Both the position numbers and the translations under genes were made by a program. The notes beneath the pieces are model-generated. The model ran no database searches. It saw nothing but the letters and a program-made list of their open reading frames with translations, and was not told the origin of the DNA. Below are positions 858-16,329 of a stretch of DNA of 20,000 nt, piece by piece (position 1 is the first letter of the stretch; each line of letters begins with the position of its first letter). Where the stretch lies: the sequence record SRR20825019_212, one strand, 5' to 3'.

Positions 858-3800
858 TTAAACCAGTGTTGCTTTCAATTGTCCGTTCAATAGGGCTTGC
901 ACCTCGGGCTTACAACTTCCGCAGCCCAATCCTGCCCCGGTTTGAGAACATAGTTGTGAAAAATCCGTACATCCGCCCGCTATGGCATCCTTAATGTTCC
1001 CATCCCCCACTTGACTACAAGAACAGACCAAACTCCCTTTAAGCGGTTCCATTGTTGATGTACCCCGTAGCAATTCCTCCCTTTTTTCAGAGAGTTCTAT
1101 TTCTTCTTCAATGAGTCGCTTAAACTCTGCGAACTCATTTTTATCACCCATCAAAATAGCTCCTTTCAGGGTATCATCCTTAACAATACATTTTTTGTAG
1201 AACCGCTTGCTCACATCCATTAATAAAATCTCTTCATAGGAAGGATCGTCCTTTGGGGCATTGACCATTCCAATGCTGCAGAGGTCAAGATTTTCAAACT
1301 TTAAAATGTTCATCAATACAGAGCCGCCATAAATACTTCCCAAATCTCCAAGAATATAATTTGCGGCCACATCGGCCTGTTGTTCCGCTGCCGAAGTGAT
1401 GCCGTACAGCGCATTCTCAAACTCAGCGATTTCGCCCAATGCAAAAATGGACGGATCGCTCGTTTTGAGATAAGGGTCCACCAAAACCCCTCTTCGGGTC
1501 TCCAACCCGGCACTTGTTGCCAAAGATATGTTGGGACGGGTTCCGATAGCATAAACAATGGCATTACAACGTAGAGTCCTGCCTGTTTTTAGATTGACCA
1601 TCAAAGTATATTGAGATTCCTCTTCCTCAAAAATGGTGCTTACCTCGTTGTCAAAAAACAATTGAATCCCCCTTTCTGAAACATCTTCGGCCAATAATTT
1701 ACTGGAAACTGGATCTAACTGGCGTTCCATTAACCTGGGGGCACGCTGTATTATGCTGATATTGATATTGATTTTTTTAAGTGCTGCTGCGAGTTCTAGA
1801 CCGAGCAAACCTCCTCCGACGATGACCACGTGCTGTTCGTTTGTTGGGAGTCCCGTTTTGGACAAATAGTCTTTGAGTCGGTCCGCATCGCCCCTTTCCC
1901 GCATTGTGAATCTTCCCGGTAGGTCCATCCGTACTTCATTTGGCACAAAAGCGCGACTCCCAGTTGCCATTACCAAAAAATCGTAATTGTGTGTGCCTCC
2001 CAAATCATCGGTCACCGTTTTTTCTTTGGCATTGATGTCTTTGACTCCATTGTTAGGATACAATGTGACCTTAAGCTTTTCCAGTTCTCCTTGCTTCAAT
2101 TTTTGAAGGGCTTCCCAAGACAGTTCTTCATTCACATATTCCGGGAGCAAGACACGGTTGTAAAAGGGATGCTCCTCTTTGGAAAACACATGGATTTCAT
2201 CCGTTTTGTTCTTTTCCCGATAGGTTTGGATAAAACGGTAAGCTGCCGCACCAGCTCCAACAACAACTATTTTTTGCGAGGGCTTCTTATATTTTTCAAC
2301 CTGAACGGCACAGTATTTAAAATCGGGTTCTTTGGATACGGGGTCTACAATATCATTGGTAAGATTGTTGGCCCTACTAAAATCATTGTTCAGGATTTTG
2401 CCCCAGTGCATAGGAAGAAAAACCACCCTTTCGCGAATATCATAATTGATTTTTACCTTGACCCTAACATTGCCCCGCCTACTCTTTACCACTGCAATAT
2501 CACCTTCCTTAAGGTTTCGCACATAGGCATCTACCTTGTTCATTTCAAGGAAAGGGGATGGGATATGGGTCAATAATCGTTTTACTTTTCCCGTTTTTGT
2601 TCGAGTATGCCATTGATCCCTGACCCTTCCGGTATTGAGCACCAATGGAAAGTCCGTTGTTGTGATTTCTGATTTGTTGTACAGGTTTCTGGGTGCATTG
2701 AAATGTACTTTCCCATTTGCAGTGAAATATTTTTGATCTTGAAAAAGCCTCGGTGTTCCCTTGTGTTCGGGCGAAGGTACAGGCCATTGAAAGCTTCCTT
2801 CCTTTTGAAGACGTTCGTGGGACAGTCCAGAAATATCAATGTTGGTCCCCTTGGTCATTAGGCAATATTCATCATAAACTTCCGAGACATTGTTGTAGTC
2901 AAAACCGCCATATCCCATTTTTTGGGCAAATCTCCACAAGATTTCTGCATCTGGCAATGCCTCACCGGGAGCATCAATGACTTTGGGCAAATAACTTATC
3001 CGACGCTCGGAATTGGTCATGGTGCCTTCTTTTTCCAACCAACCTGCTGCCGGCAACAACAAATCCGCATATTTTGTGGTCTCTGAATTATGGGAAATAT
3101 CCTGAACAATCACAAAATTGGCCTTTTCGAGAGCTTTTTCAATTTTTTTGGCATTGGGCAAACTCACAATGGGATTGGTGCAAATGATCCATATGGCCTT
3201 CATTTTTCCGGATTCCAGCGCATCAAACATTTCCGTTGCCGTGAGACCGGGCTCGCCATTGATTTCCTTGCCTCCCCAAAATTGTCGGACTTCTTCTCTG
3301 TGTCTGGGGTTTCCCAAATCGCGATGGGCCGCCAACAAACTGGCCATCCCTCCTACTTCACGACCTCCCATGGCATTGGGCTGACCTGTTAACGAAAAGG
3401 GTCCGGAACCGGGCTTGCCAATCTGTCCCGTCAACAAAGAAAGGTTCAATAGCGAAACATTTTTATCCACTCCAATAACGCTTTGGTTCAATCCCATGGT
3501 CCACATACTAATGAATCCCTTGGCATCTGAAATCATCTTGGCGGCCTTACGGATTTCCTGGGTGGTTATCCCACATTTTTCTGCAGCCTTGCGAATGGAA
3601 AGTTCAAAAGCCATTTGCTTGCATGCTTCAAAATTAGAGGTGTGCTTTTGTATGAATGGTTTGTCAATCTTTTTCTTTTCTATCAACCATCTGGCCATGG
3701 CATTGAAAAGAATCACATCGGTGCCCGGCAAAATTTGTAAGTGCAGGTCTGCCAAGGCACACGTCTGTGTCTTACGTGGATCCACTACGATCAATTTAAC

Positions 3801-4391
3801 CTTGGGGTTTTGTTCTTTGTGCTTTTCAATTCTTCGAAACAAAATTGGGTGACACCACGCAGGATTGGCGCCGGCGATCAAAAAACAATCTGCCAACTCT
3901 ATATCGGCATAAGCAATGGGAACAGCATCGTTGCCCACGGTTTTCTTGTAGCCCACCACGGCAGAACTCATGCAAAGCCTGGAGTTGGTATCAATATTAT
4001 TGGTTCCCAAAAAGCCCTTGGTCAGCTTATTGGCCAAATAATATTCCTCGGTAAGGCATTGCCCGGACACATACAGCCCAACACTGTCCGGGCCATATTT
4101 CTCCATGATACTTCCAAAAACGGCAGCTGCCCTTTTAAAGGCAATATCCCAAGTAACCTGCTGCATGGGATGATTTCTACTCCATCGCATTTCTGGATAA
4201 AGTATTCTATCCTTGGTATCTTGGGCCACGTAATTCAACGTTTTTCCTTTGGTACAGAGCATTCCCTTGTTCACGGGGTAATCCTCATCCCCTTTAACGG
4301 ACAATATGCCCTTGGCATCTTTGGAAACCTCGATGCCGCACCCCACTCCGCAATACGAGCAAATAGTTTTATGTGTGTCTTTTTTCTGCAT
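858..4391 (-). CDS. nasA: Assimilatory nitrate reductase (Mo-bisPGD, NasA/NarB type) fused to a C-terminal FAD/NAD(P)H oxidoreductase and a BFD-like [2Fe-2S] domain
   Basis: N-terminal [4Fe-4S] motif CSYCGVGC...LCTKG; Mo-ligand region NIDTNSRLCMSS; SLTGQPNAMGGRE; LNTGRVRDQWHT; DPVSKEPDFK. Two Rossmann motifs follow (VVVGAGAAA, VIVGGGLLGLE), then C-terminal CSCSQV...GCGSC. Confidence 0.95.
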   Translation of the reverse strand: MQKKDTHKTICSYCGVGCGIEVSKDAKGILSVKGDEDYPVNKGMLCTKGKTLNYVAQDTKDRILYPEMRWSRNHPMQQVTWDIAFKRAAAVFGSIMEKYGPDSVGLYVSGQCLTEEYYLANKLTKGFLGTNNIDTNSRLCMSSAVVGYKKTVGNDAVPIAYADIELADCFLIAGANPAWCHPILFRRIEKHKEQNPKVKLIVVDPRKTQTCALADLHLQILPGTDVILFNAMARWLIEKKKIDKPFIQKHTSNFEACKQMAFELSIRKAAEKCGITTQEIRKAAKMISDAKGFISMWTMGLNQSVIGVDKNVSLLNLSLLTGQIGKPGSGPFSLTGQPNAMGGREVGGMASLLAAHRDLGNPRHREEVRQFWGGKEINGEPGLTATEMFDALESGKMKAIWIICTNPIVSLPNAKKIEKALEKANFVIVQDISHNSETTKYADLLLPAAGWLEKEGTMTNSERRISYLPKVIDAPGEALPDAEILWRFAQKMGYGGFDYNNVSEVYDEYCLMTKGTNIDISGLSHERLQKEGSFQWPVPSPEHKGTPRLFQDQKYFTANGKVHFNAPRNLYNKSEITTTDFPLVLNTGRVRDQWHTRTKTGKVKRLLTHIPSPFLEMNKVDAYVRNLKEGDIAVVKSRRGNVRVKVKINYDIRERVVFLPMHWGKILNNDFSRANNLTNDIVDPVSKEPDFKYCAVQVEKYKKPSQKIVVVGAGAAAYRFIQTYREKNKTDEIHVFSKEEHPFYNRVLLPEYVNEELSWEALQKLKQGELEKLKVTLYPNNGVKDINAKEKTVTDDLGGTHNYDFLVMATGSRAFVPNEVRMDLPGRFTMRERGDADRLKDYLSKTGLPTNEQHVVIVGGGLLGLELAAALKKININISIIQRAPRLMERQLDPVSSKLLAEDVSERGIQLFFDNEVSTIFEEEESQYTLMVNLKTGRTLRCNAIVYAIGTRPNISLATSAGLETRRGVLVDPYLKTSDPSIFALGEIAEFENALYGITSAAEQQADVAANYILGDLGSIYGGSVLMNILKFENLDLCSIGMVNAPKDDPSYEEILLMDVSKRFYKKCIVKDDTLKGAILMGDKNEFAEFKRLIEEEIELSEKREELLRGTSTMEPLKGSLVCSCSQVGDGNIKDAIAGGCTDFSQLCSQTGAGLGCGSCKPEVQALLNGQLKATLV

Positions 4392-4427
4392 TCTGGCAAC
4401 ACCGTATTTTTTCGATGTTGAAAATTA

Positions 4428-4449
4428 AAAATTTACGTATAAATACGTA
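4428..4449 (-). promoter_or_regulatory. Perfect 7-2-7 inverted repeat TACGTAT-AA-ATACGTA (4434-4449) overlapping a -7-like element TAAATTTT upstream of nasA
   Basis: Read directly from the sequence. Resembles the NarL/NarP 7-2-7 box (TACYYMT-N2-AKRRGTA, 6/7 per half) and recurs at the other cluster promoters. Confidence 0.75.
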
Positions 4450-4525
4450 GTGATAATTTAATAAAAGTGATGCCCTAAATCGAGAGAATGATAAAAATTG
4501 TGGCAAAAGGTTGAAAAAATGAAAC

Positions 4526-5212
4526 CTAGACTAAATTGTATTTGCTTGCCTTTTTGGAAAGATCTATCAAATTTTTCACTTCCATCTTCTTCATCAGGTT
4601 GAAACGATGTGTCTCGATGGTACGTTTACTATTCTGTAGTTTCTCTGAAATCTCTTTGTTCGTATATCCGGCCAAGACCAATTCCAATACTTGAAGTTCC
4701 TTGTTGGTCAAATCAAAAGGTGTGTTTTTATTGACTTTGGACAATGATTGATTTGTCTTTTTATCAGAGCTGAACAAGTTGTTCACCAATACGTTGGAAA
4801 TATCCCCGCTAAAATATTTACCGCCTTCTTGGACCATGTGGATTGCCTTTACAAACTCCGCTTTGCCCGTATCCTTTAAAAGGTAACCGTTGGCGCCTGC
4901 CTGTACGGATTTTAGAATATACTCCTCGGAATCGTGCATGGAAAGAATGATGCACTTGGTATTGGATTTGCCTTTGGCATTAAGACGCTCCACGGTCTCG
5001 ATACCTCCCAATTCAGGCATTCGGATATCGATTATCAAAATGTCCGGAGACTTTTCATCTACCATTTTAAGTGCATCCAAACCATTGGACACTTCTCCAA
5101 TCACATCCAAACCTGGCTCTTCTTCCAACAAGGCACGTATGCCGTCTCTGACCAAGGAATGGTCGTCGGCCAAAACAATGGTAATGATCGCTTTTTGTTC
5201 CGAATTTTGCAT
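4526..5212 (-). CDS. NarL/FixJ (LuxR-HTH) family response regulator
   Basis: REC domain (VLADDH, phosphoacceptor in IIDIRMP, LSMHD, GYLLKD) plus LuxR HTH (LTNKELQVL...NKEISEKL...RTIETHRFNLMKK). Confidence 0.95.
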   Translation of the reverse strand: MQNSEQKAIITIVLADDHSLVRDGIRALLEEEPGLDVIGEVSNGLDALKMVDEKSPDILIIDIRMPELGGIETVERLNAKGKSNTKCIILSMHDSEEYILKSVQAGANGYLLKDTGKAEFVKAIHMVQEGGKYFSGDISNVLVNNLFSSDKKTNQSLSKVNKNTPFDLTNKELQVLELVLAGYTNKEISEKLQNSKRTIETHRFNLMKKMEVKNLIDLSKKASKYNLV

Positions 5213-5216
5213 TGCA

Positions 5217-5245
5217 CAAAAATAATCGAATTATTGAAATACGTA
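5217..5245 (-). promoter_or_regulatory. Putative promoter of the response regulator: -7 element TATTTTTG (5224-5217) with an upstream TACGTAT half-site (5245-5239)
   Basis: Exact match to the Bacteroidota TAnnTTTG consensus, located just after an intrinsic terminator. The half-site is identical to the cluster motif. Confidence 0.5.
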
Positions 5246-5251
5246 GAACAT

Positions 5252-5288
5252 AAAAAAGGCCGCCCCATTTAAAAAATGGAACAGCCTT
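5252..5288 (-). terminator. Rho-independent terminator after the narK-porin unit
   Basis: Minus strand reads GGCTGTTCCATT-TTTTA-AATGGGGCGGCC-TTTTTT: a 12-bp stem including G-U pairs followed by a U6 tract, about 20 nt after the porin stop codon. Confidence 0.8.
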
Positions 5289-5309
5289 GACTCCAACTAA
5301 CTCTACTCA

Positions 5310-6605
5310 TTAATTTTCTTTATTCGTTGAGAACAACTTTGGTTTGATGATCAACATGGCCCATGCCCAATTTTGGGTACTGGCGGCATCTGTCTCGGCC
5401 ACGCCCTTAAGTTCATACATACCATCTGCAGGGAACAATTGGGAATATCCCACTTTTAGTGCGTAACCATTGAATTTTTGGGTGAACACCAAATCGACTT
5501 CGGTTCCCAAAGAGTTTTCCCCACTGGGCAGGTCTTGCTCTCCCCTAAAATTTAAAACCTTGGCCAAGAGGCTAGATTTTTCTCCTAATTTTATATTGGT
5601 GCTGATATGAACATCAAACAATCCAATGGAATTGGCATGATTGCCCACATAGAAATAATCCATAAAACCATTGAATTTATGATTGGTGCCAGATAAAGGG
5701 AAAAAAGCACTTGTCTCGCCTTCAACTTGGCCGTCATTTCCACTTATGATTTCAAATCCAGCTCCTAGACCGATAGTGTTCGATGCCTTATAACTGGCAT
5801 CGAACCCCAACAAGTACGCCCCCTTTACATCCAACTCCCCTTGCCTCTCCCCTGTTTGTAGAAATGCATTCGCGGCCAGTCCAAAATCTCCTTTTTTATA
5901 CGCAAGGTGCGCACCCAATGTCTGCAAATTACTTACTCCATTTGCGGTATCGTTACCATCAAAATTTTGAAAGCCGTTATTGAGCATCAACAAACTTGAT
6001 GCAAATCTTTCCCATTCTTGTTTTAGGTAGAGCATCTGCATGGTCTTATAACTGAAAAAGCCCATGGTATTATAGGTATTTCCAATGGATTGAAACCCAC
6101 TTGGATTATCAAAGTCCTGATTAAAGGCAAAGGCAGCATCAATAACAAAACTATCTTTGGAATACTGTATGAGGGCTGCATCATGGTTTCTGGCCTGTTG
6201 GGTCCAGTCCACTTCGCCCAAGATACGTTGGTCATCATAGGAAAGTACCTGTCTACCCAATTTGGCGGACCAGCCAGAACCGAGCTTAAGTTGGGCCCAG
6301 GCTTCGAAAACAGCAAATGAATTGTTTTCATCCTCAGGCTGTAATTGACGGTTTTCACCCCAAACAAAAACATCCTGAAGACTCAGGTAGAACCTATACT
6401 TTTCGGTTTGGTAATCCGTATTTAAGCGAATCCGCGTAGCGGTTGCAAAACCAGGGTCGGAGGCATCAGACATCAAACTGCCAAAACCATTTCTATACTC
6501 TGTTCTTGGTCTAAACTGCCCATCCACTACGAATTGGGCAAAGGAAAAATGTACTCCCATGAGGCATAGGCACACCAAGAGCCTTTTCTTATTGAAAAAC
6601 TTCAT
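5310..6605 (-). CDS. Outer-membrane beta-barrel, alginate export (AlgE-like) family; candidate anion/nitrate porin
   Basis: Sec signal peptide (MKFFNKKRLLVCLCLMGVHFSFA/QF); motifs GQFRPRTEYRNG, KLGRQVLSYDDQRILG, GTNHKFNGFMDYF and LGTEVDL; alternating amphipathic strands; starts 42 nt after the narK stop codon. Confidence 0.8.
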   Translation of the reverse strand: MKFFNKKRLLVCLCLMGVHFSFAQFVVDGQFRPRTEYRNGFGSLMSDASDPGFATATRIRLNTDYQTEKYRFYLSLQDVFVWGENRQLQPEDENNSFAVFEAWAQLKLGSGWSAKLGRQVLSYDDQRILGEVDWTQQARNHDAALIQYSKDSFVIDAAFAFNQDFDNPSGFQSIGNTYNTMGFFSYKTMQMLYLKQEWERFASSLLMLNNGFQNFDGNDTANGVSNLQTLGAHLAYKKGDFGLAANAFLQTGERQGELDVKGAYLLGFDASYKASNTIGLGAGFEIISGNDGQVEGETSAFFPLSGTNHKFNGFMDYFYVGNHANSIGLFDVHISTNIKLGEKSSLLAKVLNFRGEQDLPSGENSLGTEVDLVFTQKFNGYALKVGYSQLFPADGMYELKGVAETDAASTQNWAWAMLIIKPKLFSTNKEN

Positions 6606-6647
6606 ATTGCTTACTATTTGGTTGAATTATTAGGGAAACTAAAAGTG

Positions 6648-8048
6648 CTAACTTTCCACGGTGGATATGGCCATTTTACCTTCCGTTTCTTGAAGTACGG
6701 CTTCTTCATCTGCGGTAGAGAATTTAATGGCAAATGCACTGATAGCCGCTACGACCACGAAAATTCCAATGATAAAATATCCGCTCGACACGGCACTCGA
6801 GGCCGCTGCAGCTTGTGCAGCTTTTACAGCTTCTTCACCTAAGCCCTCATTGGTCTTTATGGCAATGCGTTCGGCCATTGCCGATTTGGATTTTAAAAAA
6901 AGTGCGGCCAAAAATGCACCAACATTTCCCCCTGCCCCAACGATTCCCGAGATGGAACCAATAGCTTTTTTGTTGATAAAGGGAACTACGGAAAATGTTG
7001 CGCCTTCGGCCATTTGAACTGTAAGACTAAAAGCCACCAAAAAGATGATTCCCACTGCAAGACTTGTGGTCAATGAGAATACGGAGAGCATAACGCCTTC
7101 GGCCATCAAAATAAAAGTCAGGAACAAAACCCTTCCACGCAGACCTTTTAACTTTCCGAAACGATCACCGAAAAAGCCGCCCAAGGTACGGGCAAAAATA
7201 TTCATCAGGGCAAAGGACAAAACAATGTTCCCTGCCGTAATCCTCTCCAAGCCAAAGGTGTTTTGCAAATAATCGTCCATGGTTCCATAAACGGTAAGCT
7301 CCATACCAAAACAAGCGGCATACACCAAGAACAATATCCAAACGCGGTAATCTTTCAAGGTGCTCACAAAAGATACTTTATCCTTCTTCAAAACCGGCAT
7401 GTTTCCTGTTTTCCGCAATTCTGCAAAATTGCCCTCTGGAGTATCCTGGGTAAAGAAGTAGTATACAAGCCCCATTAAAAAACATACTATTCCGGCAATA
7501 ACCATGGAGTAACGCCATGCAACTTCATCGGCAACACCAAAACTTACCACAGCTGAAGCAATCAAGGGCATTCCCAATCTGTTGGCACCACCACCAAGAT
7601 TTCCCCAACCGGCCGATGTGGCATTTGCAGTACCCACTATGTTGGGAGCGAACATAATGGAAGTATGGAATTGGGTAATAACAAAGGAAGCCCCTATGAA
7701 TCCGATAAGAAATCTACAAAGTAAGAACTGTAAGGGTGTTTGTGCCAAACCTATCAAGATTACGGGAATAGAACCAATAATCAACAACCACGTGTAGCAC
7801 AGCCTAGGTCCAAACCTATCGCACAACTTACCGATGAGCAATCGGGCAAAAACAGTACCGGTGACAGCTAAAATTATAGAATTCCATTTTTGCGATGGGG
7901 ACAATCCCAAATCCTTAACAACATCCGGCATAAAAGGAACAATGCCAAACCATGCAAAAAAGCAAATGAAGAAAGCAATGGCAGAAATCCAAAACGTTCT
8001 AATAGGGATACTTTTAAGATTCAAAAGGTTTAATCGTGTGGCTTTCAT
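6648..8048 (-). CDS. narK: Nitrate/nitrite porter (NNP) family MFS transporter, NarK/NRT2-like
   Basis: About 12 hydrophobic segments; nitrate signatures GTANATSAGWGNLGGG and GSISGIVGAGGNVG; conserved Arg in VFARLLIG and IFARTLGG; CFFAWF in TM1. Confidence 0.93.
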   Translation of the reverse strand: MKATRLNLLNLKSIPIRTFWISAIAFFICFFAWFGIVPFMPDVVKDLGLSPSQKWNSIILAVTGTVFARLLIGKLCDRFGPRLCYTWLLIIGSIPVILIGLAQTPLQFLLCRFLIGFIGASFVITQFHTSIMFAPNIVGTANATSAGWGNLGGGANRLGMPLIASAVVSFGVADEVAWRYSMVIAGIVCFLMGLVYYFFTQDTPEGNFAELRKTGNMPVLKKDKVSFVSTLKDYRVWILFLVYAACFGMELTVYGTMDDYLQNTFGLERITAGNIVLSFALMNIFARTLGGFFGDRFGKLKGLRGRVLFLTFILMAEGVMLSVFSLTTSLAVGIIFLVAFSLTVQMAEGATFSVVPFINKKAIGSISGIVGAGGNVGAFLAALFLKSKSAMAERIAIKTNEGLGEEAVKAAQAAAASSAVSSGYFIIGIFVVVAAISAFAIKFSTADEEAVLQETEGKMAISTVES

Positions 8049-8089
8049 AATACTTAGATTAATTGATTAGATAATCAAATCTAAGTATT
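8049..8089. repeat. 41-bp imperfect palindrome immediately upstream of the narK start codon
   Basis: AATACTTAGAT-(TAA)-TTGATTA-GA-TAATCAA-ATCTAAGTATT: 11-bp and 7-bp perfect arms separated by a 3-nt bulge. Confidence 0.7.
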
Positions 8090-8129
8090 TATACGTATTT
8101 ATTGAATTATGTAACGTTTTTCTACGTAT
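8076..8129 (-). promoter_or_regulatory. narK promoter: 7-2-7 box (sense TACGTAT-AA-ATACTTA, 8097-8082) overlapping -7 element TAGATTTG (8083-8076), plus an upstream TACGTA site (8123-8128)
   Basis: Read directly. The -7 element matches TAnnTTTG exactly; no TTTG is present at the -33 position. Confidence 0.75.
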
Positions 8130-8253
8130 TTTTATGAAATAATATAAAGGAGCCCTGTCATATTGCAACATTTTAAAATTGAGCCTTGTGTTACTGACAA
8201 TTTGAAAATAGACATTGAAAACAATGTAAGCCATATTATATTAAGGTATGGGT

Positions 8254-9030
8254 TTAGAGCTCCATACCTACAACTCTTTGGATGGCATCTTCAAAAAATG
8301 ATGGATGGTCGGCCACCACATCACCGACAATAATGATTCCAGGGCATGACAAATCCAATTCGCTGGACATATGGACGGCATCATTTAATGTGCCCGTGAT
8401 ACAATTCTCGTTTGGCAAGGTTCCATTTTGAACAATGGCATGCGGCGTGTAACCTTCTCTATACCTCCCTATTTCCTTAGCTATATCCACCAATTTACGG
8501 ACTCCCATCAAAATGACCAATGTTGCGGAAGATTGAGCGGCCCATTGAAAGTCCCTGGAAAGACCCCCTTCTTTTGTTGTTGCGGTAAGGACCCAAAAAC
8601 TGTTGCTCATCCCTCTTTTGGTGATGGATATTCCTTGACTTGCCGGTACCGATATAGCACTGGAAACACCTGGTACCACCTCCACAGGGATTCCAAAAGA
8701 TTCCGCATATTCGACTTCCTCCATTCCTCTACCAAATACAAATGGATCACCTCCTTTTAGCCGGACCACATGACCATACCTAAATGCATTTTCTACGATA
8801 AGGGCATTGATTTTATCTTGACCAAAGCTATGTTTTCCACACCGTTTTCCTACGTATATTTTCGGAATATGCCTTGGAGCTTCGGTTAGTAAATCAGCAT
8901 CCGTTAATGCATCGTACAGAACAACATCGGCCCGCTTCAAAGCGCGCAACCCTCTAACAGTAACAAGGTTTGAAGAGCCTGGGCCTGCACCGACCAAAGT
9001 TACTCTTGCCTGTTCCTTATATTGCTTCAT
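8254..9030 (-). CDS. cobA: Uroporphyrinogen-III C-methyltransferase (SUMT; siroheme biosynthesis)
   Basis: VTLVGAGPG, ADVVLYDAL, VVRLKGGDPFVFGRGMEE, VVPGVSSA, LVILMG; divergent from nirB, which requires siroheme. Confidence 0.95.
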   Translation of the reverse strand: MKQYKEQARVTLVGAGPGSSNLVTVRGLRALKRADVVLYDALTDADLLTEAPRHIPKIYVGKRCGKHSFGQDKINALIVENAFRYGHVVRLKGGDPFVFGRGMEEVEYAESFGIPVEVVPGVSSAISVPASQGISITKRGMSNSFWVLTATTKEGGLSRDFQWAAQSSATLVILMGVRKLVDIAKEIGRYREGYTPHAIVQNGTLPNENCITGTLNDAVHMSSELDLSCPGIIIVGDVVADHPSFFEDAIQRVVGMEL

Positions 9031-9066
9031 TATAAATATTTGTTTTGATTTTTATGAATTCCACAA

Positions 9067-9080
9067 CAAGAATACGTATT
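9067..9080 (-). promoter_or_regulatory. Putative cobA promoter: palindrome AATACGTATT (9071-9080) overlapping -7-like TATTCTTG (9074-9067)
   Basis: Same half-site/-7 overlap as at narK, nirB and nasA; one mismatch to TAnnTTTG. Confidence 0.55.
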
Positions 9081-9105
9081 TATTTTTAAATAATTATCAA
9101 TTATA

Positions 9106-9127
9106 TACGTAATTATACTTAGTTTTG
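9106..9127 (+). promoter_or_regulatory. nirB promoter: 7-2-7 box TACGTAA-TT-ATACTTA (9106-9121) overlapping -7 element TAGTTTTG (9120-9127)
   Basis: Read directly. In sense orientation it is nearly identical to the narK promoter (TACGTAWWWATACTTAGWTTTGATT). Confidence 0.75.
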
Positions 9128-9152
9128 ATTCATATTTCAAAATCATATGTAT

Positions 9153-11672
9153 ATGAAAACTGTAATTGTAGTGGGCAACGGAATGGTGGGATATAAGTTT
9201 TGTGAAAAATTTGTATCCAAATCCTCCAGCGATGAATATAAGCTTATTGTCTTCGGCGAAGAACCTAGACCTGCGTATGATAGAGTCCACCTCAGTGAAT
9301 ATTTTGAGAATCAAGATGCAAATGCCTTGGAACTTGCACCTACTTCTTGGTATAAAGAGAATAACATTGAACTTATTACAGGACAACGGGTCACAGATAT
9401 CAAAAAAGAGAATAAGGAGATCCATACCGCTTCGGGCAAATCTTATACCTATGATTATTTGATTTTGGCCACAGGCTCTGTTCCCTTTGTACCCCCTGTT
9501 TCCGGTGTTGAAAAGGAAGGTGTTTTTGTCTACCGAACCATAGAGGATTTAGGGGAGATGATGGCCTATGCCTCACAAATTAAAGCCATTAAACCCAACG
9601 GGAAAGCAGCTATTTTAGGAGGAGGCCTCTTGGGGCTCGAAGCAGGAAAGGCTGTTTTGGACATGGGCCTGGAAGCCCACGTTGTGGAGTTTGCACCAAA
9701 ACTGATGCCCCGACAATTGGATACCCGAAGTAGTAATGTGCTCCAGTTAAAACTGGAGGATATGGGAATACAGGTACATTTGAGCAAGGCAACCAATAAA
9801 ATCTTGGGCGACAAGGTAATCGAAGGAATGGAGTTTGGAGAAGATGATAGGTTGGACGTGGATATGCTCATCATTTCGGCAGGGATACGCCCCCGGGACG
9901 AGCTTGGTAAAACATGCGGACTGGAAATGGGAACACGAGGAGGAATCATCGTTGACAATAGAATGCGAACATCCGCTAAAGATATATTCGCCATTGGCGA
10001 GGTGGCCTTGTACAACCAAATGATATACGGCCTTGTCGCTCCTGGTTATGAAATGGCCGATGTTGCGGTGAATCAGATATTGGGCAATCAAGAAGTAATT
10101 ATGCCAGCGGATATAGATATGTCCACAAAACTTAAATTGATGGGTGTGGACGTAGCCAGTTTTGGTGTTCCATACATGCCTGCAGAAAAGGGGTTGTCCA
10201 TCATCTTTGAAAACAAGACAAAATACCTCTACAAGAGAATCAATGTAAGCCATGACGGAAAAACGCTCTTGGGAGGGATTCTCGTTGGGGATGCTGCAGA
10301 CTATAATATTCTGCACCAGATGTACCTAAATGGTATCGCTTTGCCCGATAATGCCGAAGAATTGATCGTAGGGGCACGCGGCGAAGGAGGCTCTGCTTTT
10401 GGTAGTGCCATGGATTTGCCCGATACCGCCCAAATCTGTTCCTGTGAAAGTGTTTCCAAAGGAAACATCTGCTCCTCTCTTTTGGATGGCAAGTCCAATT
10501 CTCTAAAAGATGTTATAAATTGTACCAAAGCCACAACGGGTTGTGGCGGATGTAAGCCCATGGTGGTGGAGCTGGTCAATGAGACGCTAAAATCCATGGG
10601 AAAAGAAGTGAAAGATGTTATCTGCGAACATTTCGAATATACGCGACAAGAACTCTACGGCATCATCAAGGTAAAAGGTATCACAAGTTATGATGAGGCT
10701 CTTGACAAATGCGGACATGGTGATGGTTGCGAAGTGTGCAAGCCTGCACTAGCCTCCATTTTTGCCACCATCTATAACCATACCGCCAACAAAGAAGACG
10801 TAATACAAGACTCTAATGATCGTTTTTTGGCCAATATCCAACGAAATGGTTCCTACTCGGTAGTGCCACGAATACCCGGGGGTGAAATAACTCCCGACAA
10901 ACTGATCGTTCTTGGAGATGTGGCCAAACAATACGGTTTGTACACCAAAATTACGGGAGGCCAGCGCATTGATTTATTTGGAGCTGAACTGAACGATCTT
11001 CCCGCCATCTGGAAAAAACTTATTGATGCTGGTTTTGAGAGTGGCCATGCCTACGGTAAATCCTTGCGTACCGTAAAAAGTTGCGTAGGCTCCACATGGT
11101 GTCGATTCGGTATGGACGAGAGTGTAAGCTTTGCCATTGCCCTCGAAGAACGCTATAAAGGAATTCGGTCCCCTCACAAACTAAAAGGAGGAGTATCGGG
11201 ATGTATTCGTGAATGTGCCGAGGCACGCGGAAAGGATTTTGGGGTGATCGCCGTAGAAGGAGGTTGGAACCTTTATGTATGTGGAAACGGTGGTGCCACA
11301 CCAAAGCACGCTCAATTATTGGCGGAGCAAATAGACAATGAAACGGTCATCAAATATCTGGACCGCTTTTTAATGTATTACATCCGGACTGCTGCGCCAC
11401 TAATGCGTACTGCCGCTTGGCTGGAAAAACTGGAAGGTGGCATGGAGCAACTCAAAAAGATTGTGATCGAAGACAGTTTGAACATTGCCGAAGAACTCGA
11501 AACTGACATGCAGGGCCTTGTGGAAAAGTATGAATGTGAATGGAAGCAAGCTGTGGAAAATGAAGAAATCGGCAGGCGCTTCAAGCATTTTGTGAATACC
11601 GATGAAAGGGACGATAATTTGGTCTTTGTTCCCATGAGGGAACAGAAAATGCCAGAACCATGGACCAACTAA
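9153..11672 (+). CDS. nirB: NAD(P)H-dependent siroheme nitrite reductase, large subunit
   Basis: VIVVGNGMVG, AYDRVHLS, ILGGGLLGLEA; two BFD-like Cys sets (CSC...GCGGC, CEH...GCEVC); siroheme/[4Fe-4S] ligands KSCVGSTWC and GVSGCIREC. Start placed at MKTVIV (alternative ATG at 9147). Confidence 0.97.
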   Translation: MKTVIVVGNGMVGYKFCEKFVSKSSSDEYKLIVFGEEPRPAYDRVHLSEYFENQDANALELAPTSWYKENNIELITGQRVTDIKKENKEIHTASGKSYTYDYLILATGSVPFVPPVSGVEKEGVFVYRTIEDLGEMMAYASQIKAIKPNGKAAILGGGLLGLEAGKAVLDMGLEAHVVEFAPKLMPRQLDTRSSNVLQLKLEDMGIQVHLSKATNKILGDKVIEGMEFGEDDRLDVDMLIISAGIRPRDELGKTCGLEMGTRGGIIVDNRMRTSAKDIFAIGEVALYNQMIYGLVAPGYEMADVAVNQILGNQEVIMPADIDMSTKLKLMGVDVASFGVPYMPAEKGLSIIFENKTKYLYKRINVSHDGKTLLGGILVGDAADYNILHQMYLNGIALPDNAEELIVGARGEGGSAFGSAMDLPDTAQICSCESVSKGNICSSLLDGKSNSLKDVINCTKATTGCGGCKPMVVELVNETLKSMGKEVKDVICEHFEYTRQELYGIIKVKGITSYDEALDKCGHGDGCEVCKPALASIFATIYNHTANKEDVIQDSNDRFLANIQRNGSYSVVPRIPGGEITPDKLIVLGDVAKQYGLYTKITGGQRIDLFGAELNDLPAIWKKLIDAGFESGHAYGKSLRTVKSCVGSTWCRFGMDESVSFAIALEERYKGIRSPHKLKGGVSGCIRECAEARGKDFGVIAVEGGWNLYVCGNGGATPKHAQLLAEQIDNETVIKYLDRFLMYYIRTAAPLMRTAAWLEKLEGGMEQLKKIVIEDSLNIAEELETDMQGLVEKYECEWKQAVENEEIGRRFKHFVNTDERDDNLVFVPMREQKMPEPWTN

Positions 11673-11684
11673 ATTACAAATACT

Positions 11685-12062
11685 ATGGAAGCATTATTTC
11701 AACAATACAGCCCGGTTGCTTTGGACAAGGTAACGGTTTGGTTCAAAGCTTGCCAAGAGCATGACATACCGGAAAACGGGGGCGCATGTGTAAAATACAA
11801 GAACAAACAGATTGCGCTATATCATTTTAAACGGAAACAAAAATGGTATGCCTGTCAAAACTTATGCCCCCATAAAATGGAAATGGTATTATCGCGGGGC
11901 ATGATAGGGGATTCCGAAGGTATTGCCAAAGTGGCCTGCCCCATGCACAAAAAAACATTCTCTTTGGAAAATGGGGAAAATCTCAACGGAGACCTGCCCT
12001 CGATCGCTACTTTTCCCGTAAAAGTGAAAAATGGCTTTGTGTATATTGGTTTTTCTGAATAG
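11685..12062 (+). CDS. nirD: Nitrite reductase small subunit (Rieske-like)
   Basis: WYACQNLCPHK...VLSRGMIGD...KVACPMHKKTFSL; directly follows nirB. Confidence 0.95.
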   Translation: MEALFQQYSPVALDKVTVWFKACQEHDIPENGGACVKYKNKQIALYHFKRKQKWYACQNLCPHKMEMVLSRGMIGDSEGIAKVACPMHKKTFSLENGENLNGDLPSIATFPVKVKNGFVYIGFSE

Positions 12063-12077
12063 TTTTAAGAAAAACCA

Positions 12078-12674
12078 ATGAATATGGGCAAGTCCGAAAA
12101 ACTTCTGGAAGCATTCAAATTGTTTGATGACGCCAATGCACAAGATCCCAACAAGGAAAGCTTTGAAGGAAAATTATATCCAAAAGAGTTATTGTATGCA
12201 CAGCGCATGACCGATATTCTGAATGAATTTGAACCGGATGCTTCGGAAGCATTGCAACTAACGGCACGTTGCCAGCACATTTGTAGGTGGGAAATACCTA
12301 GGGAATCCTATGAAATGAATCGGGTGGGCTACCTAAAATGGAGGCAGCAACTCAAGAAATTCCACGCAGAAAAAGCAAGCAATATACTAAAGAAAGTAGG
12401 CTACGATGAAGATATTATTGATAGGGTATCGTTTCTATTGCTCAAAAAACAATTAAAAAAAGATGAGGAGACCCAAACATTGGAAGATGTTATTTGCTTG
12501 GTCTTCTTAAAATATTATTATGAGCCGTTCCTCATAAAGCACGATGACGATAAAATTATCTCCATTTTGCAAAAAACTTGGAGAAAAATGTCAGAAAAAG
12601 GTCATAAAGCGGCCTTGGACTTGCCTTTTTCGGAAAGAGGAATGGAACTGGTCTCCAAGGCCCTATCCAACTAA
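12078..12674 (+). CDS. DUF4202-like protein of unknown function
   Basis: Recalled family motifs: DANAQDPN, ELLYAQRMT, LTARCQHICRWEIPRESY...GYLKWR, QTLEDVICLVFL, KTWRKMSEKG. Confidence 0.8.
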   Translation: MNMGKSEKLLEAFKLFDDANAQDPNKESFEGKLYPKELLYAQRMTDILNEFEPDASEALQLTARCQHICRWEIPRESYEMNRVGYLKWRQQLKKFHAEKASNILKKVGYDEDIIDRVSFLLLKKQLKKDEETQTLEDVICLVFLKYYYEPFLIKHDDDKIISILQKTWRKMSEKGHKAALDLPFSERGMELVSKALSN

Positions 12675-14542
12675 TGCCTAAAGTGGGCGCCGACAAACAA
12701 ATGAAAAGGAGCAATCAGCAGCAAACATTGGAGGTCTCAACCTTCTTGAGAATCCGAAAGTGGTATCTATTGGCACTATCGGCCATTGCCCTTACCATCA
12801 TCATAGCCCAAATCCTTATCCAACAGCACCTCAACTCCCAACTGAACGACTCCCGAGTAATCAACGTGGCGGGTCGACAACGTGCCTACAGCCAAAAATT
12901 GGTCAAGGAGGCTTTATTGCTCAACCAAGAAAATCTTGAGGAAAACGAGCGACAGGAGCTTTTAAAAGAACTGAACAGTACGCTTTATATCTGGAAGACA
13001 TCCCACGAAGGGCTTCAAATGGGGAACGACAGCATTGGGCTTCCCAAAGAGGACAATGTGTCCATTCTAGAACATTTTGATGAGCTTTCCATACACCATA
13101 GTGCTATGGTCGACGCTGTAAAAACAATGCTTTCCCAAAAAGATGCTTCTGGGAAAGCATTGAATGTTCTGTTGGCCAATGAAGGTCCCTTTTTGGAAAA
13201 AATGGACGCCATTGTCAATGAATATGATACCATCAGTAAGGAGCGATTGCAAAAACTTAAGGTCAAGGAATACCTTTTGTTGTGTTTTTCTCTATTGATT
13301 TTGATTTTGGAGGTCCTGTTTATCTTCAGGCCATTGTCAATTCAAATCAAGGAAACCATACGTAATCTGGTTAAAAGTCAGTTACAATCGGAGCAAGACG
13401 CCAAGGAAATCAAAAAAATATTCGAAGAAAAGGAACGTTCGCTACAAGAGTTGAAAGAACTGAACTTTGTTATTGACAATGCCGCACTCTTTGCGAGTGC
13501 CCGTAGTGATGGCACCGTTGTTTTCATCAGTAAAAAATTCTTGATCCTTCTGGAGGAATCCAACATTCCCCCCAACACACATCTTTCCGAAATATTGACC
13601 ACCGATGAAGGACAACAGCAATATCTTGGAGAGATTTTGACGAAACCCCGAAAGAGCATCAGAACGGAGGAAATTGAAATCAAGACCAAAGCGGGCAACA
13701 AATTGTGGTTGGACATGTCCATTATTCCCATGCACCAAACAAGCCTAAAGCAAAGTGTTTTGCTATTATGTTCTGATATAACTGAGCGCAAGAACAACCA
13801 AGAAAAGGTGGAACAACTTACGCTACAAAATTATGAGGATCGCATGCGCCAGAAACAATTACAGGCCAGTCTTATCGTGGAAGGTCAGGAAGAGGAACGG
13901 AAACGTATCGCCAAGGACATCCATGATGGCATTGGGCAAATGCTTACGGCGTTACGGTTCAATATCGAATCCATCAACTTGGACCAAATGGAGCGCACAA
14001 AAGAAAAAATAGCTTACCTAAAAGAGCTTACTTCCGATTTGATCAAAGGGGTGCGCACCGCCACCTTTAATCTTACTCCTCCCGAATTGGGCGACCACGG
14101 TATTTTTCCCGCGTTGCAAAAAATGACTTCGGAATTGAGTAAATTAACGGGAAAGAACATTTTGTTCGAGAACAAGGCAGAACAGAACATCCGTTTTGAT
14201 TCGTTGGCGGAAACCAATATTTACAGGGTTACCCAAGAAGCCGTGAACAATGCCATTAAATATGCGGATGCCAACTATATTTTGGTTTCCATAAACCATA
14301 CGGACAATTTGTTGAGCGTGGTGATAGATGATGACGGCAAAGGTTTTGACCCGACCGTTTTGGACCGTCCTCCAAAAAACAACAGTGAAGGTGGAATGGG
14401 CGTATTTTTTATGAGGGAGCGCATCAGTTACATAAACGGTAGATTGTTCATCAATTCCAACCCCGGTGAAGGAACACGTGTTACCATCAATTACAATTTG
14501 AACGAGACCAAAAAGCCAAAAAAAGAAACGTATGAAGATTAG
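12674..14542 (+). CDS. NarX/PilJ-type nitrate-sensing histidine kinase (TM-sensor-TM, PAS, HisKA_3, HATPase)
   Basis: Two TM helices flank a periplasmic domain with P-box-like INVAGRQRAYSQK; PAS-like region ending DITERK; H-box ERKRIAKDIHDGIGQ; YRVTQEAVNNAIKYA, DDGKGFD, GGMG. The ATG overlaps the upstream stop (TAATG); alternative start at 12701. Confidence 0.92.
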   Translation: MPKVGADKQMKRSNQQQTLEVSTFLRIRKWYLLALSAIALTIIIAQILIQQHLNSQLNDSRVINVAGRQRAYSQKLVKEALLLNQENLEENERQELLKELNSTLYIWKTSHEGLQMGNDSIGLPKEDNVSILEHFDELSIHHSAMVDAVKTMLSQKDASGKALNVLLANEGPFLEKMDAIVNEYDTISKERLQKLKVKEYLLLCFSLLILILEVLFIFRPLSIQIKETIRNLVKSQLQSEQDAKEIKKIFEEKERSLQELKELNFVIDNAALFASARSDGTVVFISKKFLILLEESNIPPNTHLSEILTTDEGQQQYLGEILTKPRKSIRTEEIEIKTKAGNKLWLDMSIIPMHQTSLKQSVLLLCSDITERKNNQEKVEQLTLQNYEDRMRQKQLQASLIVEGQEEERKRIAKDIHDGIGQMLTALRFNIESINLDQMERTKEKIAYLKELTSDLIKGVRTATFNLTPPELGDHGIFPALQKMTSELSKLTGKNILFENKAEQNIRFDSLAETNIYRVTQEAVNNAIKYADANYILVSINHTDNLLSVVIDDDGKGFDPTVLDRPPKNNSEGGMGVFFMRERISYINGRLFINSNPGEGTRVTINYNLNETKKPKKETYED

Positions 14543-16327: not shown

Positions 16328-16329
16328 TG

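What the first reader, a model, noticed from the sequence alone, without database searches (positions are those of the whole stretch)
4428..9127. Shared TACGTAT-N2-ATACGTA box fused to the -7 element at the nitrate-cluster promoters: candidate new regulon motif
Seen, in sense orientation: nasA TACGTAT-TT-ATACG[TAAATTTT] (4449-4428); narK TACGTAT-AA-ATACT[TAGATTTG] (8097-8076); nirB TACGTAA-TT-ATACT[TAGTTTTG] (9106-9127); cobA ATACG[TATTCTTG] (9079-9067). A lone half-site precedes the regulator gene (5239-5245). In all four enzyme/transporter promoters the last TA of the box is the TA of the TAnnTTTG -7 element. narK and nirB lack a -33 TTTG. Established: NarL/NarP bind 7-2-7 inverted heptamers TACYYMT. 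Inference: this is the binding site of the cluster's own LuxR-family regulator. Overlap with -7 is a repressor-like position, or it implies an unusual activation geometry for Bacteroidota RNA polymerase.
Basis: partly seen in the sequence, partly recalled or inferred. Interest (0 to 1): 0.8.

Follow-up and report, generated by a model that had tools for sequence, protein, structure and literature searches.

The report
Nitrate-cluster operator fused to promoter boxes
A conserved DNA palindrome sits on the core promoters of the nitrate-assimilation genes of marine flavobacteria and is very probably the docking site of the cluster's own nitrate-sensing regulator, giving a first testable model of how this bacterial group controls nitrate use.

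Summary
TACGTA-N4-TACGTA boxes lie at 4434-4449 (nasA), 8082-8097 (narK) and 9106-9121 (nirB), with a single hexamer at 9073-9078 (cobA).

- **Conservation:** in 80 related Flavobacteriaceae loci plus the window, the box precedes nasA in 74 of 76, nirB in 68 of 68 and the transporter operon in 58 of 60.
- **Specificity:** in five genomes, 22 of 49 near-perfect sites fall inside the roughly 20-kb nitrate cluster.
- **Link to the regulator:** among 20 Bacteroidota genomes with the fused nasA, intergenic hexamer pairs occur in all 9 that have the NarX-like kinase. They occur in 1 of 11 without it.

The box is therefore very likely (about 0.85) the operator of the cluster's NarL-family response regulator.

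The hexamer shares its last TA with the -7 box at nirB, narK and cobA. At nasA the better-conserved -7 lies 6 bp further downstream.

All sites fall within about -38 to +24 of the predicted starts. I favour negative control relieved by nitrate (0.5) over an unusual activator geometry (0.3). No binding or expression data exist. I found no paper describing the motif.

The parts
4434..4449 (-). nasA box, TACGTATTTATACGTA (perfect palindrome). It spans predicted -34 to -19 if the -7 box is 4427-4420.
   Evidence: 0 mismatches. A box is present upstream of nasA in 74 of 76 sequences.
4420..4427 (-). Best-conserved -7 candidate of nasA, TAATTTTC (TAnnTT type; TAnnTTGY in other genera).
   Evidence: TAnnTT lies 7 nt after the box in 72 of 74 promoters. 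The TAnnTTGY variant at -12 to -5 is described in PMC9723704 (passages).
4428..4435 (-).
   Evidence: Fused TAnnTTT occurs in 59 of 74 promoters, but fused TAnnTTTG in only 4 of 74.
4526..5212 (-). NarL/LuxR-family response regulator, the proposed binder of the box.
   Evidence: Pfam Response_reg 2e-28 and GerE 1.9e-17. The closest solved structure is NarL 1A04, E 1.5e-33. The recognition helix is conserved in orthologues.
5217..5224 (-). Candidate -7 box of the regulator gene, TATTTTTG. It lies 4 nt before the ATG, so the mRNA is predicted to be leaderless.
   Evidence: Sequence. TAnnTTTG-N4-ATG occurs in 41 of 81 sequences and N5 in 6 of 81. This is a prediction only.
5241..5246 (.). Lone TACGTA hexamer upstream of the regulator gene (predicted -33 to -28).
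   Evidence: Sequence. It is lineage-specific: 17 of 81 within 120 nt. Positions differ between genera.
5256..5288 (-). Terminator-like hairpin with a T run after the porin gene. It separates the narK-porin unit from the regulator gene.
   Evidence: 15 pairs, 6 G-C.
5310..8048 (-). narK (6648-8048) and an Alginate_exp-family porin (5310-6605), forming the transporter operon.
   Evidence: RNA-library contig X2 covers 5385-8063 (weak).
8082..8097 (-). narK box, TACGTATAAATACTTA (predicted -26 to -11).
   Evidence: 1 mismatch. A box precedes the transporter operon in 58 of 60 sequences.
8076..8083 (-). narK -7 box, TAGATTTG, sharing its TA with the box.
   Evidence: TAMKTAnnTTTG occurs in 30 of 36 narK promoters.
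8123..8128 (.). Auxiliary TACGTA hexamer 25 nt upstream of the narK box.
   Evidence: A comparable upstream hexamer is seen in a Zobellia-like locus (L103).
8254..9030 (-). cobA (uroporphyrinogen-III C-methyltransferase, siroheme branch).
   Evidence: NCBIfam TIGR01469, 259.5 bits against a cut-off of 185.
9073..9078 (.). cobA hexamer TACGTA (predicted -16 to -11 of cobA). It lies 27 nt from the nirB box.
   Evidence: The hexamer is fused to nn[TCA]TTG in 59 of 64 promoters. The 27-nt spacing holds in 56 of 56 promoters matched by the pattern, out of 68 nirB regions examined.
9067..9074 (-). cobA -7 box, TATTCTTG, sharing its TA with the hexamer.
9106..9121 (+). nirB box, TACGTAATTATACTTA (predicted -26 to -11).
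   Evidence: The fused box is present in 68 of 68 nirB promoters.
9120..9127 (+). nirB -7 box, TAGTTTTG, sharing its TA with the box.
   Evidence: TTG at +4 to +6 after the box is the best-conserved flank. The box starts 39-42 nt before the ATG in 48 of 66 promoters, which leaves no room for another promoter.
9147..14909 (+). nirB-nirD-DUF4202-sensor kinase-DUF7009 operon. The kinase is at 12674-14542.
   Evidence: The kinase has PilJ-type sensor, PAS, HisKA_3 and HATPase domains and no HAMP hit.
858..4391 (-). nasA: an assimilatory nitrate reductase fused to a NirB-like flavoprotein and a BFD domain (1177 aa).

Best explanation
The boxes are the operator of the cluster-encoded NarL-family response regulator (4526-5212). 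This regulator is paired with the NarX-like, HAMP-less sensor kinase (12674-14542).

One regulator subunit reads one TACGTA hexamer. Two hexamers 10 bp apart (6-4-6, equivalent to 7-2-7) bind a dimer. Auxiliary hexamers 24-27 nt away probably add cooperativity.

Every regulated promoter carries a hexamer on or within the core promoter:

- nirB and narK: box at -26 to -11.
- cobA: single hexamer at -16 to -11.
- nasA: box at -34 to -19.
- Transporter operons of other genera: box at -38 to -23 plus a third hexamer at -16 to -11.

A bound regulator should therefore exclude sigma-A from the -7 box. I propose negative control of nasA, narK-porin (or the ABC transporter), cobA and nirBD-kinase, relieved when periplasmic nitrate or nitrite is sensed.

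**Shown:** the motif, its conservation, its restriction to the cluster, and its co-occurrence with the two-component system.

**Inferred:** that the regulator binds it, the sign of control, and how nitrate lowers occupancy. Possible routes are a kinase that is off or acts as a phosphatase when ligand is bound, or release of the regulator on phosphorylation.
For: **The regulator is the binder**

1. TACGTA is the most enriched 6-mer in 180 upstream regions: 416 observed against 12.7 expected. Its density is 3.36 per kb in intergenic DNA against 0.23 per kb in coding DNA across 81 sequences.
2. In five genomes, 22 of 49 sites with at most 1 mismatch lie in the nitrate cluster. By genome: G001 3 of 8, G002 2 of 3, G003 7 of 19, G004 4 of 5, G005 6 of 14.
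3. I took 20 Bacteroidota genomes from the 28 fused-nasA hits in a 401-genome sample. A full-length kinase orthologue is present in 9. All 9 of their loci have 1-6 intergenic hexamer pairs. Of the 11 loci from genomes without the kinase, 10 have none and 1 has one. Within family f7, one genome has both features and one has neither.
4. The regulator is the only protein with a DNA-binding domain in the cluster. DUF4202 gave no hit in the box-bearing locus L109. DUF7009 is present in the box-less locus L114.
5. The recognition helix RT[IVA]E[TV]HRFN is conserved in orthologues that are 46-55% identical overall, from three families.

**Negative control**

1. The -7 box lies at -12 to -5 in flavobacteria (PMC9723704, passages). 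This places every box inside the RNA polymerase footprint.
2. The box position differs between promoter classes by 8 and 12 bp, which is not a whole helical turn.
3. Extra hexamers lie at or after the predicted start:
   - nirB in 9 of 68 promoters, at -3 or at +14 to +19.
   - Distant loci L113, L109, L105 and L106.
   - The regulator gene's own promoter in Zobellia-like loci.
4. The -7 boxes are at or near consensus.
5. In Zobellia, operators of the repressor AusR that overlap the -7 box give strong repression. A single or distant operator gives weak repression (PMC7641319, passages).
Against: - **No direct data.** There is no binding, mutant or condition-resolved expression data.
- **Expected logic is positive control.** A nitrate sensor encoded in an assimilation cluster is expected to induce its genes. 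NarL-family regulators usually bind DNA when phosphorylated. This regulator keeps the acidic pocket, the phospho-acceptor Asp, and the Ser and Lys aligned with NarL. Repression relieved by nitrate therefore needs inverted sensor output or release on phosphorylation.
- **No -33 element.** The anchored consensus shows no conserved TTTG upstream of the boxes. This is what activator-dependent promoters look like.
- **Rigid register.** The hexamer and -7 box keep an invariant register at nirB (68 of 68). The spacing to the cobA hexamer is a fixed 27 nt (56 of 56). Simple occlusion does not require this rigidity.
- **Limits of the samples.** Related genomes are not independent. The 80 loci were chosen by similarity to the regulator, so only the 20-genome set tests co-occurrence.
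- **Starts are predicted.** Transcription starts were not mapped.
Confidence: 0.5

Rival explanations
1. The binder and the site are the same, but the phosphorylated regulator activates transcription. Bound between the -33 position and the -7 box, it would substitute for the missing -33 contact. Alternatively it could reshape the spacer, co-occupying the promoter with RNA polymerase. This would be an activation geometry not described for NarL-family regulators.
For: - Substrate-induction logic favours a positive regulator.
- The receiver domain has the canonical residues.
- The anchored consensus of the nirB, narK and nasA promoters shows no conserved TTTG upstream of the boxes.
- The hexamer-to-(-7) register is invariant (68 of 68) and the 27-nt spacing is fixed (56 of 56).
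- At nasA and the ABC-type promoters the distal hexamer sits exactly where a -33 element would be.
- The kinase gene lies in the nirB operon, which would give the positive feedback common in two-component systems.
Against: - The proximal hexamer shares the TA that sigma-A must read, so simultaneous occupancy is hard to picture.
- Box centres differ by 8 and 12 bp between promoter classes.
- Hexamers lie at the predicted start, or at +14 to +24, in several lineages.
- The -7 boxes are already at or near consensus.
- The only tested flavobacterial case of operators on the -7 box is a repressor (PMC7641319).
Confidence: 0.3
2. The box is bound by a different transcription factor encoded elsewhere in the genome. 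It would merely share its phyletic distribution with the two-component system.
For: - No binding data exist.
- A 6-4-6 palindrome could suit other dimeric helix-turn-helix families.
- Co-occurrence rests on few independent lineages (f1, f12 and f7 with the system; f4, f5, f19, f21, f55 and one f7 genome without).
Against: - The sites are confined to the cluster in five genomes, which is typical of a locally encoded, pathway-specific regulator.
- The regulator is the only DNA-binding protein in the cluster.
- Its recognition helix is conserved together with the hexamer across three families.
Confidence: 0.1
3. The motif is not a transcription-factor site. It would be an extended -7 promoter element, the target of an alternative sigma factor, or a chance feature of AT-rich DNA.
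For: - The unit TACGTAnnTTTG recurs as if it were one element.
- Where the third hexamer degenerates, a G before the TA of the -7 box is often kept.
Against: - The distal hexamer is as conserved as the proximal one although it lies outside any promoter element.
- The 10-bp hexamer spacing does not fit the spacing of two-part sigma promoter elements.
- The sequence does not fit the two-part sigma-54 promoter pattern as I recall it (my own reading of the sequence).
- The motif is confined to one cluster. Chance is excluded and by conservation across genera.
Confidence: 0.05

Closest known systems
Escherichia coli NarX-NarL / NarQ-NarP and their 7-2-7 heptamer sites
   Same: - The sensor has a PilJ/NarX-type periplasmic domain and a HisKA_3 kinase core.
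- The regulator belongs to the NarL family. NarL (1A04) is the closest solved structure, E 1.5e-33.
- The site is a 16-bp inverted repeat with TAC at positions 1-3 and GTA at 14-16.
- NarL both activates and represses (PMC8199190, passage).
   Different: - It controls assimilatory, not respiratory, genes.
- Scores fall below the NCBIfam NarL, NarP, NarX and NarQ cut-offs.
- The kinase shows no HAMP or GAF hit and has a PAS domain.
- The half-site is TACGTAT, with G where the NarL rule has a pyrimidine.
- The residues aligned to the NarL helix ESTVKVHVKH read KRTIETHRFN.
- All known targets carry the site inside the core promoter.
Bacteroidetes 'narHK/narRR' class of nitrate-sensing kinases (review PMC8199190)
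   Same: The window's kinase fits the review's description: a short sensor lacking HAMP and GAF-like domains, with PAS in Flavobacteriales, encoded beside nitrate metabolism genes (passages).
   Different: In the passages I read, the review treats sensor diversity and structure only. I saw no DNA target, regulon or direction of control there. I did not read its supplementary datasets.
AusR (GntR family) operators in Zobellia galactanivorans
   Same: - It is in the same bacterial family.
- The conserved motif found upstream of pathway genes includes the -7 box TAnnTTTG.
- One to three operator copies occur.
- Operators overlapping the -7 box give strong repression, and single or distant ones give weak repression (PMC7641319, passages).
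   Different: - The regulator belongs to a different protein family and has a different operator sequence.
- AusR is a one-component repressor released by a metabolite, not a phosphorylation-controlled regulator.
MerR-type regulators that activate from the promoter spacer (recalled)
   Same: A dimer bound to a palindrome between the upstream and downstream promoter elements. This is the only well-known class that activates from inside the core promoter.
   Different: - The protein family is unrelated.
- MerR sites do not share bases with the downstream promoter element.
- There is no evidence here for an over-long spacer, or for any -33 element at all.
Other pathway-specific nitrate-assimilation regulators, such as NasS-NasT of Paracoccus and NnaR of mycobacteria
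   Same: They are dedicated regulators encoded with, or acting on, nas and nir genes. I saw them only as titles and abstract starts in search listings.
   Different: They belong to different protein families and, as I recall, use different mechanisms. None is known to use this motif.

Membership tests
NarL/FixJ (LuxR-type) response regulators | Receiver domain with a phospho-acceptor Asp, plus a C-terminal GerE/LuxR helix-turn-helix. | tested here: met
   PF00072 at 2e-28 and PF00196 at 1.9e-17. The alignment to NarL covers residues 10-217. The DD, D, S and K positions are conserved in orthologues.
NarL or NarP proper (orthologues of the E. coli proteins) | Score above the curated NCBIfam equivalog cut-off. 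| tested here: not met
   NarL scores 142.5 bits against a cut-off of 250. NarP scores 125.9 against 343.
NarL-type 7-2-7 operator | Two inverted heptamers separated by 2 bp. | tested here: met
   TACGTAT-NN-ATACGTA at 4434-4449. The spacing is invariant in 217 boxes.
   Position 4 is G in 214 of 217 boxes, which gives 6 of 7 positions at best. The residues aligned to the NarL helix also differ.
NarX/NarQ-type nitrate sensor kinases | Periplasmic PilJ/P-box sensor domain with a HisKA_3 and HATPase core. | tested here: met
   PF13675 at 1.5e-14, PF07730 at 5e-12 and PF02518 at 2e-14.
NarX/NarQ-type nitrate sensor kinases | HAMP and GAF-like linker domains, and a score above the NarX or NarQ cut-offs. 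| tested here: not met
   No HAMP or GAF hit at E up to 0.001. NarQ scores 82.3 against 553 and NarX 69.7 against 578. This matches the Bacteroidetes class described in PMC8199190.
NarX/NarQ-type nitrate sensor kinases | Binds nitrate or nitrite. | not testable with these tools
   The only basis is the review's statement that the nitrate-binding motif is conserved among these kinases in general.
Bacteroidota sigma-A promoter | -7 box TAnnTTTG at -12 to -5 of a mapped start. | tested here: inconclusive
   - Sequence matches: narK 8 of 8, nirB 8 of 8, cobA 7 of 8, nasA 7 of 8.
- Starts are not mapped.
- RNA-library contigs stop 6-28 nt short of the predicted starts and, with one exception, do not cross the boxes. 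The exception is X3 contig 5913-8448.
Promoter-occluding operator (AusR-like architecture) | Operator overlaps the -7 box. | tested here: met
   nirB 68 of 68, cobA 59 of 64 and narK 31 of 36.
Promoter-occluding operator (AusR-like architecture) | Loss of the regulator de-represses the genes. | not testable with these tools
   I found no mutant or condition-resolved expression data.

The most novel reading that the evidence does not exclude
The phosphorylated NarL-family regulator activates transcription from a site that shares two base pairs with the -7 box. It would replace the absent -33 contact of Bacteroidota sigma-A.

This would be a new activation geometry for a response regulator. It would also be a first view of how activators work with the unusual Bacteroidota RNA polymerase.
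Probability: 0.3. Interest if true: 0.85.

Novelty: new variant of a known kind. Interest (0 to 1): 0.58.

Why it matters
Flavobacteriaceae are major marine heterotrophs, yet how they regulate nitrate assimilation is not described in anything I could find.

The Bacteroidetes nitrate-sensor class is known only from sequence surveys (PMC8199190). This motif gives that two-component system a concrete, compact regulon: nasA, the nitrate transporter with its porin, cobA, and nirBD together with the kinase itself. It also provides a precise operator that can be mutated.

The promoter architecture forces a clear either/or. One possibility is a nitrate-relieved repressor, which would imply inverted output from a HAMP-less NarX-like sensor. 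The other is activation from within the core promoter. A single knockout in a tractable flavobacterium would decide between them.

The motif is also a practical marker for nitrate-regulated promoters in metagenomes, and a candidate nitrate-responsive switch for Bacteroidota genetics.

Tried and rejected
- **Own genome:** the window's own genome is not held, so I used the nearest genome G001 and four genomes reached through loci.
- **Genome-wide enrichment:** there is none. Totals equal the reversed-pattern control, for example 8 against 8 in G001 and 19 against 18 in G003. Only the clustering is significant.
- **Extra regulon members:** the out-of-cluster matches I inspected are intragenic or lack a -7 box, so I rejected them. 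These were L003 and L123-L128, which is 7 of the 27 out-of-cluster sites.
- **Reading the fused TTTG as a -33 element:** rejected for nirB. The box starts 39-42 nt before the ATG in 48 of 66 promoters. A -7 box 19 nt further on would put the start inside the gene.
- **A second nirB -7 candidate about 12 nt after the box:** rejected, because it is poorly conserved.
- **Sigma-54 or another alternative sigma factor:** the sequence and spacing do not fit.
- **Known RNA families:** none in the window.
- **Mapping starts from RNA contigs:** the runs are kept as contigs, which cannot show starts. Uncovered stretches are not evidence.
- **A solved nitrate-sensor structure matching the kinase by sequence:** none at E up to 0.001. 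Only DesK/VraS-type kinase cores matched.
- **The Flavobacterium hibernum promoter paper (PMC1828668):** not held, so the importance of the -33 element rests on recall.
- **Literature searches for the motif or for regulation of nitrate assimilation in flavobacteria:** nothing relevant.
- **Structure and complex prediction:** not attempted, because these tools cannot model protein-DNA binding.

Full report
**Context**

The window carries a complete nitrate-assimilation cluster:

- nasA at 858-4391 (minus strand), a nitrate reductase fused to a NirB-like flavoprotein
- a NarL/LuxR-family response regulator at 4526-5212 (minus)
- an Alginate_exp-family porin at 5310-6605 (minus)
- narK at 6648-8048 (minus)
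- cobA at 8254-9030 (minus)
- nirB at 9147-11672, followed by nirD, DUF4202, a sensor kinase at 12674-14542 and DUF7009, all on the plus strand

The kinase has a PilJ-type periplasmic domain, a PAS domain, HisKA_3 and HATPase. The nearest named record is a Flagellimonas locus whose regulator is 98% identical (L011).

**The observation**

All quoted strings are at the stated coordinates. The regulator-gene half-site is one base off, at 5240-5246. The palindrome with up to 3 mismatches occurs 7 times in the window against 0.36 expected. None of 200 shuffles reached 7.

**Conservation**

A search with the regulator protein returned 80 loci at 70-98% identity, from about 20 named genera of Flavobacteriaceae. 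The gene order is conserved. Many loci replace narK with an ABC-type transporter operon.

I scored each upstream region by its best match to the 14 specified positions of TACGTATNNATACGTA.

| Promoter | n | 0 mismatches | 1 | 2 | 3 | 5 | 6 |
|---|---|---|---|---|---|---|---|
| nasA | 76 | 44 | 26 | 3 | 1 | 1 | 1 |
| nirB | 68 | 10 | 30 | 21 | 7 | 0 | 0 |

The two clear nasA misses, L056 and L072, have degenerate remnants of the box.

TACGTA is the top 6-mer in 180 upstream regions, 416 observed against 12.7 expected. Its density is 3.36 per kb in intergenic DNA and 0.23 per kb in coding DNA.

The core is TACGTA-N4-TACGTA. The two central positions are always A or T. TAAGTA and TACTTA are tolerated variants.

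**Specificity**

Genome-wide totals equal those of a reversed control pattern. The sites nevertheless cluster: 22 of 49 sites with at most 1 mismatch, in five genomes of 3.4-5.3 Mb, lie in the roughly 20-kb nitrate cluster.

The seven out-of-cluster sites I examined sit in coding-like DNA without a -7 box. I found no hits at molybdenum-cofactor genes or other siroheme genes.

**Link to the two-component system**

From a 401-genome sample of the phylum, 40 genomes had a nasA match and 28 of the matches were of the fused type. I fetched 20 kb upstream of 20 of these.

- A full-length kinase orthologue (E below 1e-100) is present in 9 of the 20 genomes.
- Those 9 loci have 1-6 intergenic hexamer pairs each.
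- Of the 11 loci from genomes without the orthologue, 10 have none and 1 has one.

The groups were defined by the kinase, and the hexamer pairs were counted separately. Related genomes are not independent. The carriers fall in families f1, f12 and f7. The non-carriers fall in f4, f5, f19, f21, f55 and one f7 genome.

The regulator is the only DNA-binding protein in the cluster. DUF4202 gave no hit in the box-bearing locus L109, and DUF7009 is present in the box-less locus L114.

NarL (1A04) is the closest solved structure, E 1.5e-33. The residues aligned to its recognition helix differ: KRTIETHRFN against ESTVKVHVKH. This helix is conserved in orthologues that are only 46-55% identical overall. 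The hexamer is conserved in the same loci.

**Promoter geometry**

In Flavobacterium psychrophilum the sigma-A -7 box TAnnTTTG lies at -12 to -5. A variant TAnnTTGY occupies the same place (PMC9723704, passages). On that basis the promoters fall into classes.

| Promoter | Arrangement | Count | Predicted position |
|---|---|---|---|
| nirB | Box shares its last TA with TAnn[T/A/C]TTG | 68 of 68 | -26 to -11 |
| narK (window type) | Same arrangement | 23 of 60 transporter promoters | -26 to -11 |
| cobA | Single fused hexamer | 59 of 64 | -16 to -11 |
| Other transporter promoters | Box, then 6 nt, then a third fused hexamer | 11 of 60 | -38 to -23, plus -16 to -11 |
| Other transporter promoters | Box, then 10 nt, then TAnnTTTR | 10 of 60 | -38 to -23 |
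| Other transporter promoters | Other box-bearing arrangements | 14 of 60 | varied |
| Other transporter promoters | No box | 2 of 60 | none |
| nasA | Box, then 6 nt, then TAnnTT | 72 of 76 | -34 to -19 |

At nasA a fused TAnnTTTG is seen in only 4 of 74 promoters.

The cobA hexamer lies exactly 27 nt from the nirB box in all 56 promoters matched by the pattern, out of 68 examined.

Additional strict hexamers lie at -3 or at +14 to +19 of nirB in 9 of 68 promoters. They also lie downstream of the -7 box in the distant loci L113, L109, L105 and L106. In Zobellia-like loci a hexamer lies on the predicted start of the regulator gene.

The anchored consensus shows no conserved -33 TTTG.

**RNA**

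Only contig-level data were available.

- Two metatranscriptome runs from one study have nirB contigs starting at 9154 and nasA contigs ending at 4395 and 4398.
- A run from a second study has contigs covering 5385-8063 (porin-narK), 8152-9046 (cobA) and 4472-5195 (regulator).

These contigs stop 6-28 nt short of the predicted starts and do not cross the boxes. One contig, X3 5913-8448, does bridge the narK box. It may reflect read-through from cobA, or DNA in the library. This is at most a weak hint.

**Mechanism**

That the regulator binds the box is well supported, at about 0.85. The sign of control is not shown.

For repression:

- Every site lies inside the polymerase footprint.
- The proximal hexamer shares the TA that sigma must read.
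- Box positions differ by non-integral helical turns between promoter classes.
- Some hexamers lie at or after the predicted start.
- The -7 boxes are near consensus.
- Overlap of AusR operators with the -7 box gives repression in Zobellia (PMC7641319, passages).

For activation:

- Substrate-induction logic favours a positive regulator.
- The receiver domain is canonical.
- There is no -33 element.
- The register is rigid.

I put repression at 0.5 and activation at 0.3. Repression relieved by nitrate would need either inverted output from this HAMP-less sensor or release of the regulator on phosphorylation. Both are inferences.

**Comparison and novelty**

The system works like NarXL, but it is not an orthologue:

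- It scores below all NCBIfam cut-offs for NarL, NarP, NarX and NarQ.
- It has no HAMP or GAF hit.
- Its half-site and recognition helix differ from NarL's.

It belongs to the Bacteroidetes narHK/narRR class named in PMC8199190. In the passages I read, that review gives no DNA target.

Six full-text searches found no description of the motif. I read no supplementary files. Papers from subscription journals are not covered by the library.

**Verdict**

This is a real, conserved and apparently undescribed operator. It is a new variant of a known kind of system. Interest is moderate to high, because one knockout would settle an either/or in which both outcomes are informative.

Noticed in passing
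window 4450-4525 (nasA upstream, sense = minus strand): A second conserved block lies upstream of the nasA box. A[CT]T[AT]TT[AG] sits about 19 nt before the box in 59 of 74 promoters. A weaker AATTATTAT-like block sits about 50 nt before it, in 28 of 74. The predicted positions are about -47 and -78. It could be the site of a second regulator, for example one reporting nitrogen status, or an A/T-rich upstream element.
   Followed up: partly
window 5213-5224: The regulator gene has a consensus -7 box, TATTTTTG, ending 4 nt before its ATG. This predicts a leaderless mRNA. TAnnTTTG-N4-ATG occurs in 41 of 81 sequences and N5 in 6 of 81.
   Followed up: partly
window 9073-9121; loci L059, L061, L063, L066, L075, L089, L090: The hexamers are arranged symmetrically. 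An auxiliary hexamer lies 27 nt upstream of the nirB box; this is the cobA hexamer. In seven loci another hexamer lies 26-28 nt downstream, abutting the nirB start codon (TACGTATG). This suggests a higher-order complex on the DNA.
   Followed up: partly
window 12078-12674 and 14532-14909: DUF4202 and DUF7009 genes are embedded in the nirBD-kinase operon. They are conserved in many related clusters. DUF7009 overlaps the 3' end of the kinase gene by 11 nt. Their role in nitrate assimilation is unknown.
   Followed up: no
window 5310-6605: An Alginate_exp-family outer-membrane protein is encoded between the transporter and the regulator. It was detected in 77 of 81 sequences. It is probably a nitrate or nitrite porin.
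   Followed up: no
window 858-4391 and 2-853: nasA is an 1177-aa fusion of a molybdopterin nitrate reductase with a NirB-like FAD/NAD reductase and a BFD [2Fe-2S] domain. It is followed by a conserved gene with a NIR_SIR ferredoxin-like half domain, which is cut off by the window edge.
   Followed up: no
window 5913-8448: One metatranscriptome contig (run X3) runs from the porin gene through narK and its box into cobA. This suggests some read-through from cobA into narK, or DNA in the library.
   Followed up: no
loci L111, L114-L117, L121 (Bacteroidota families f4, f5, f7): Nitrate clusters without the two-component system have A/T-rich cobA-nirB intergenic regions with no TACGTA boxes. They presumably use a different, unidentified regulator.
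   Followed up: no
window 15026-18798: A PepSY_TM protein and a TonB-dependent siderophore-type receptor lie next to the cluster. I saw no boxes upstream of them.
   Followed up: no
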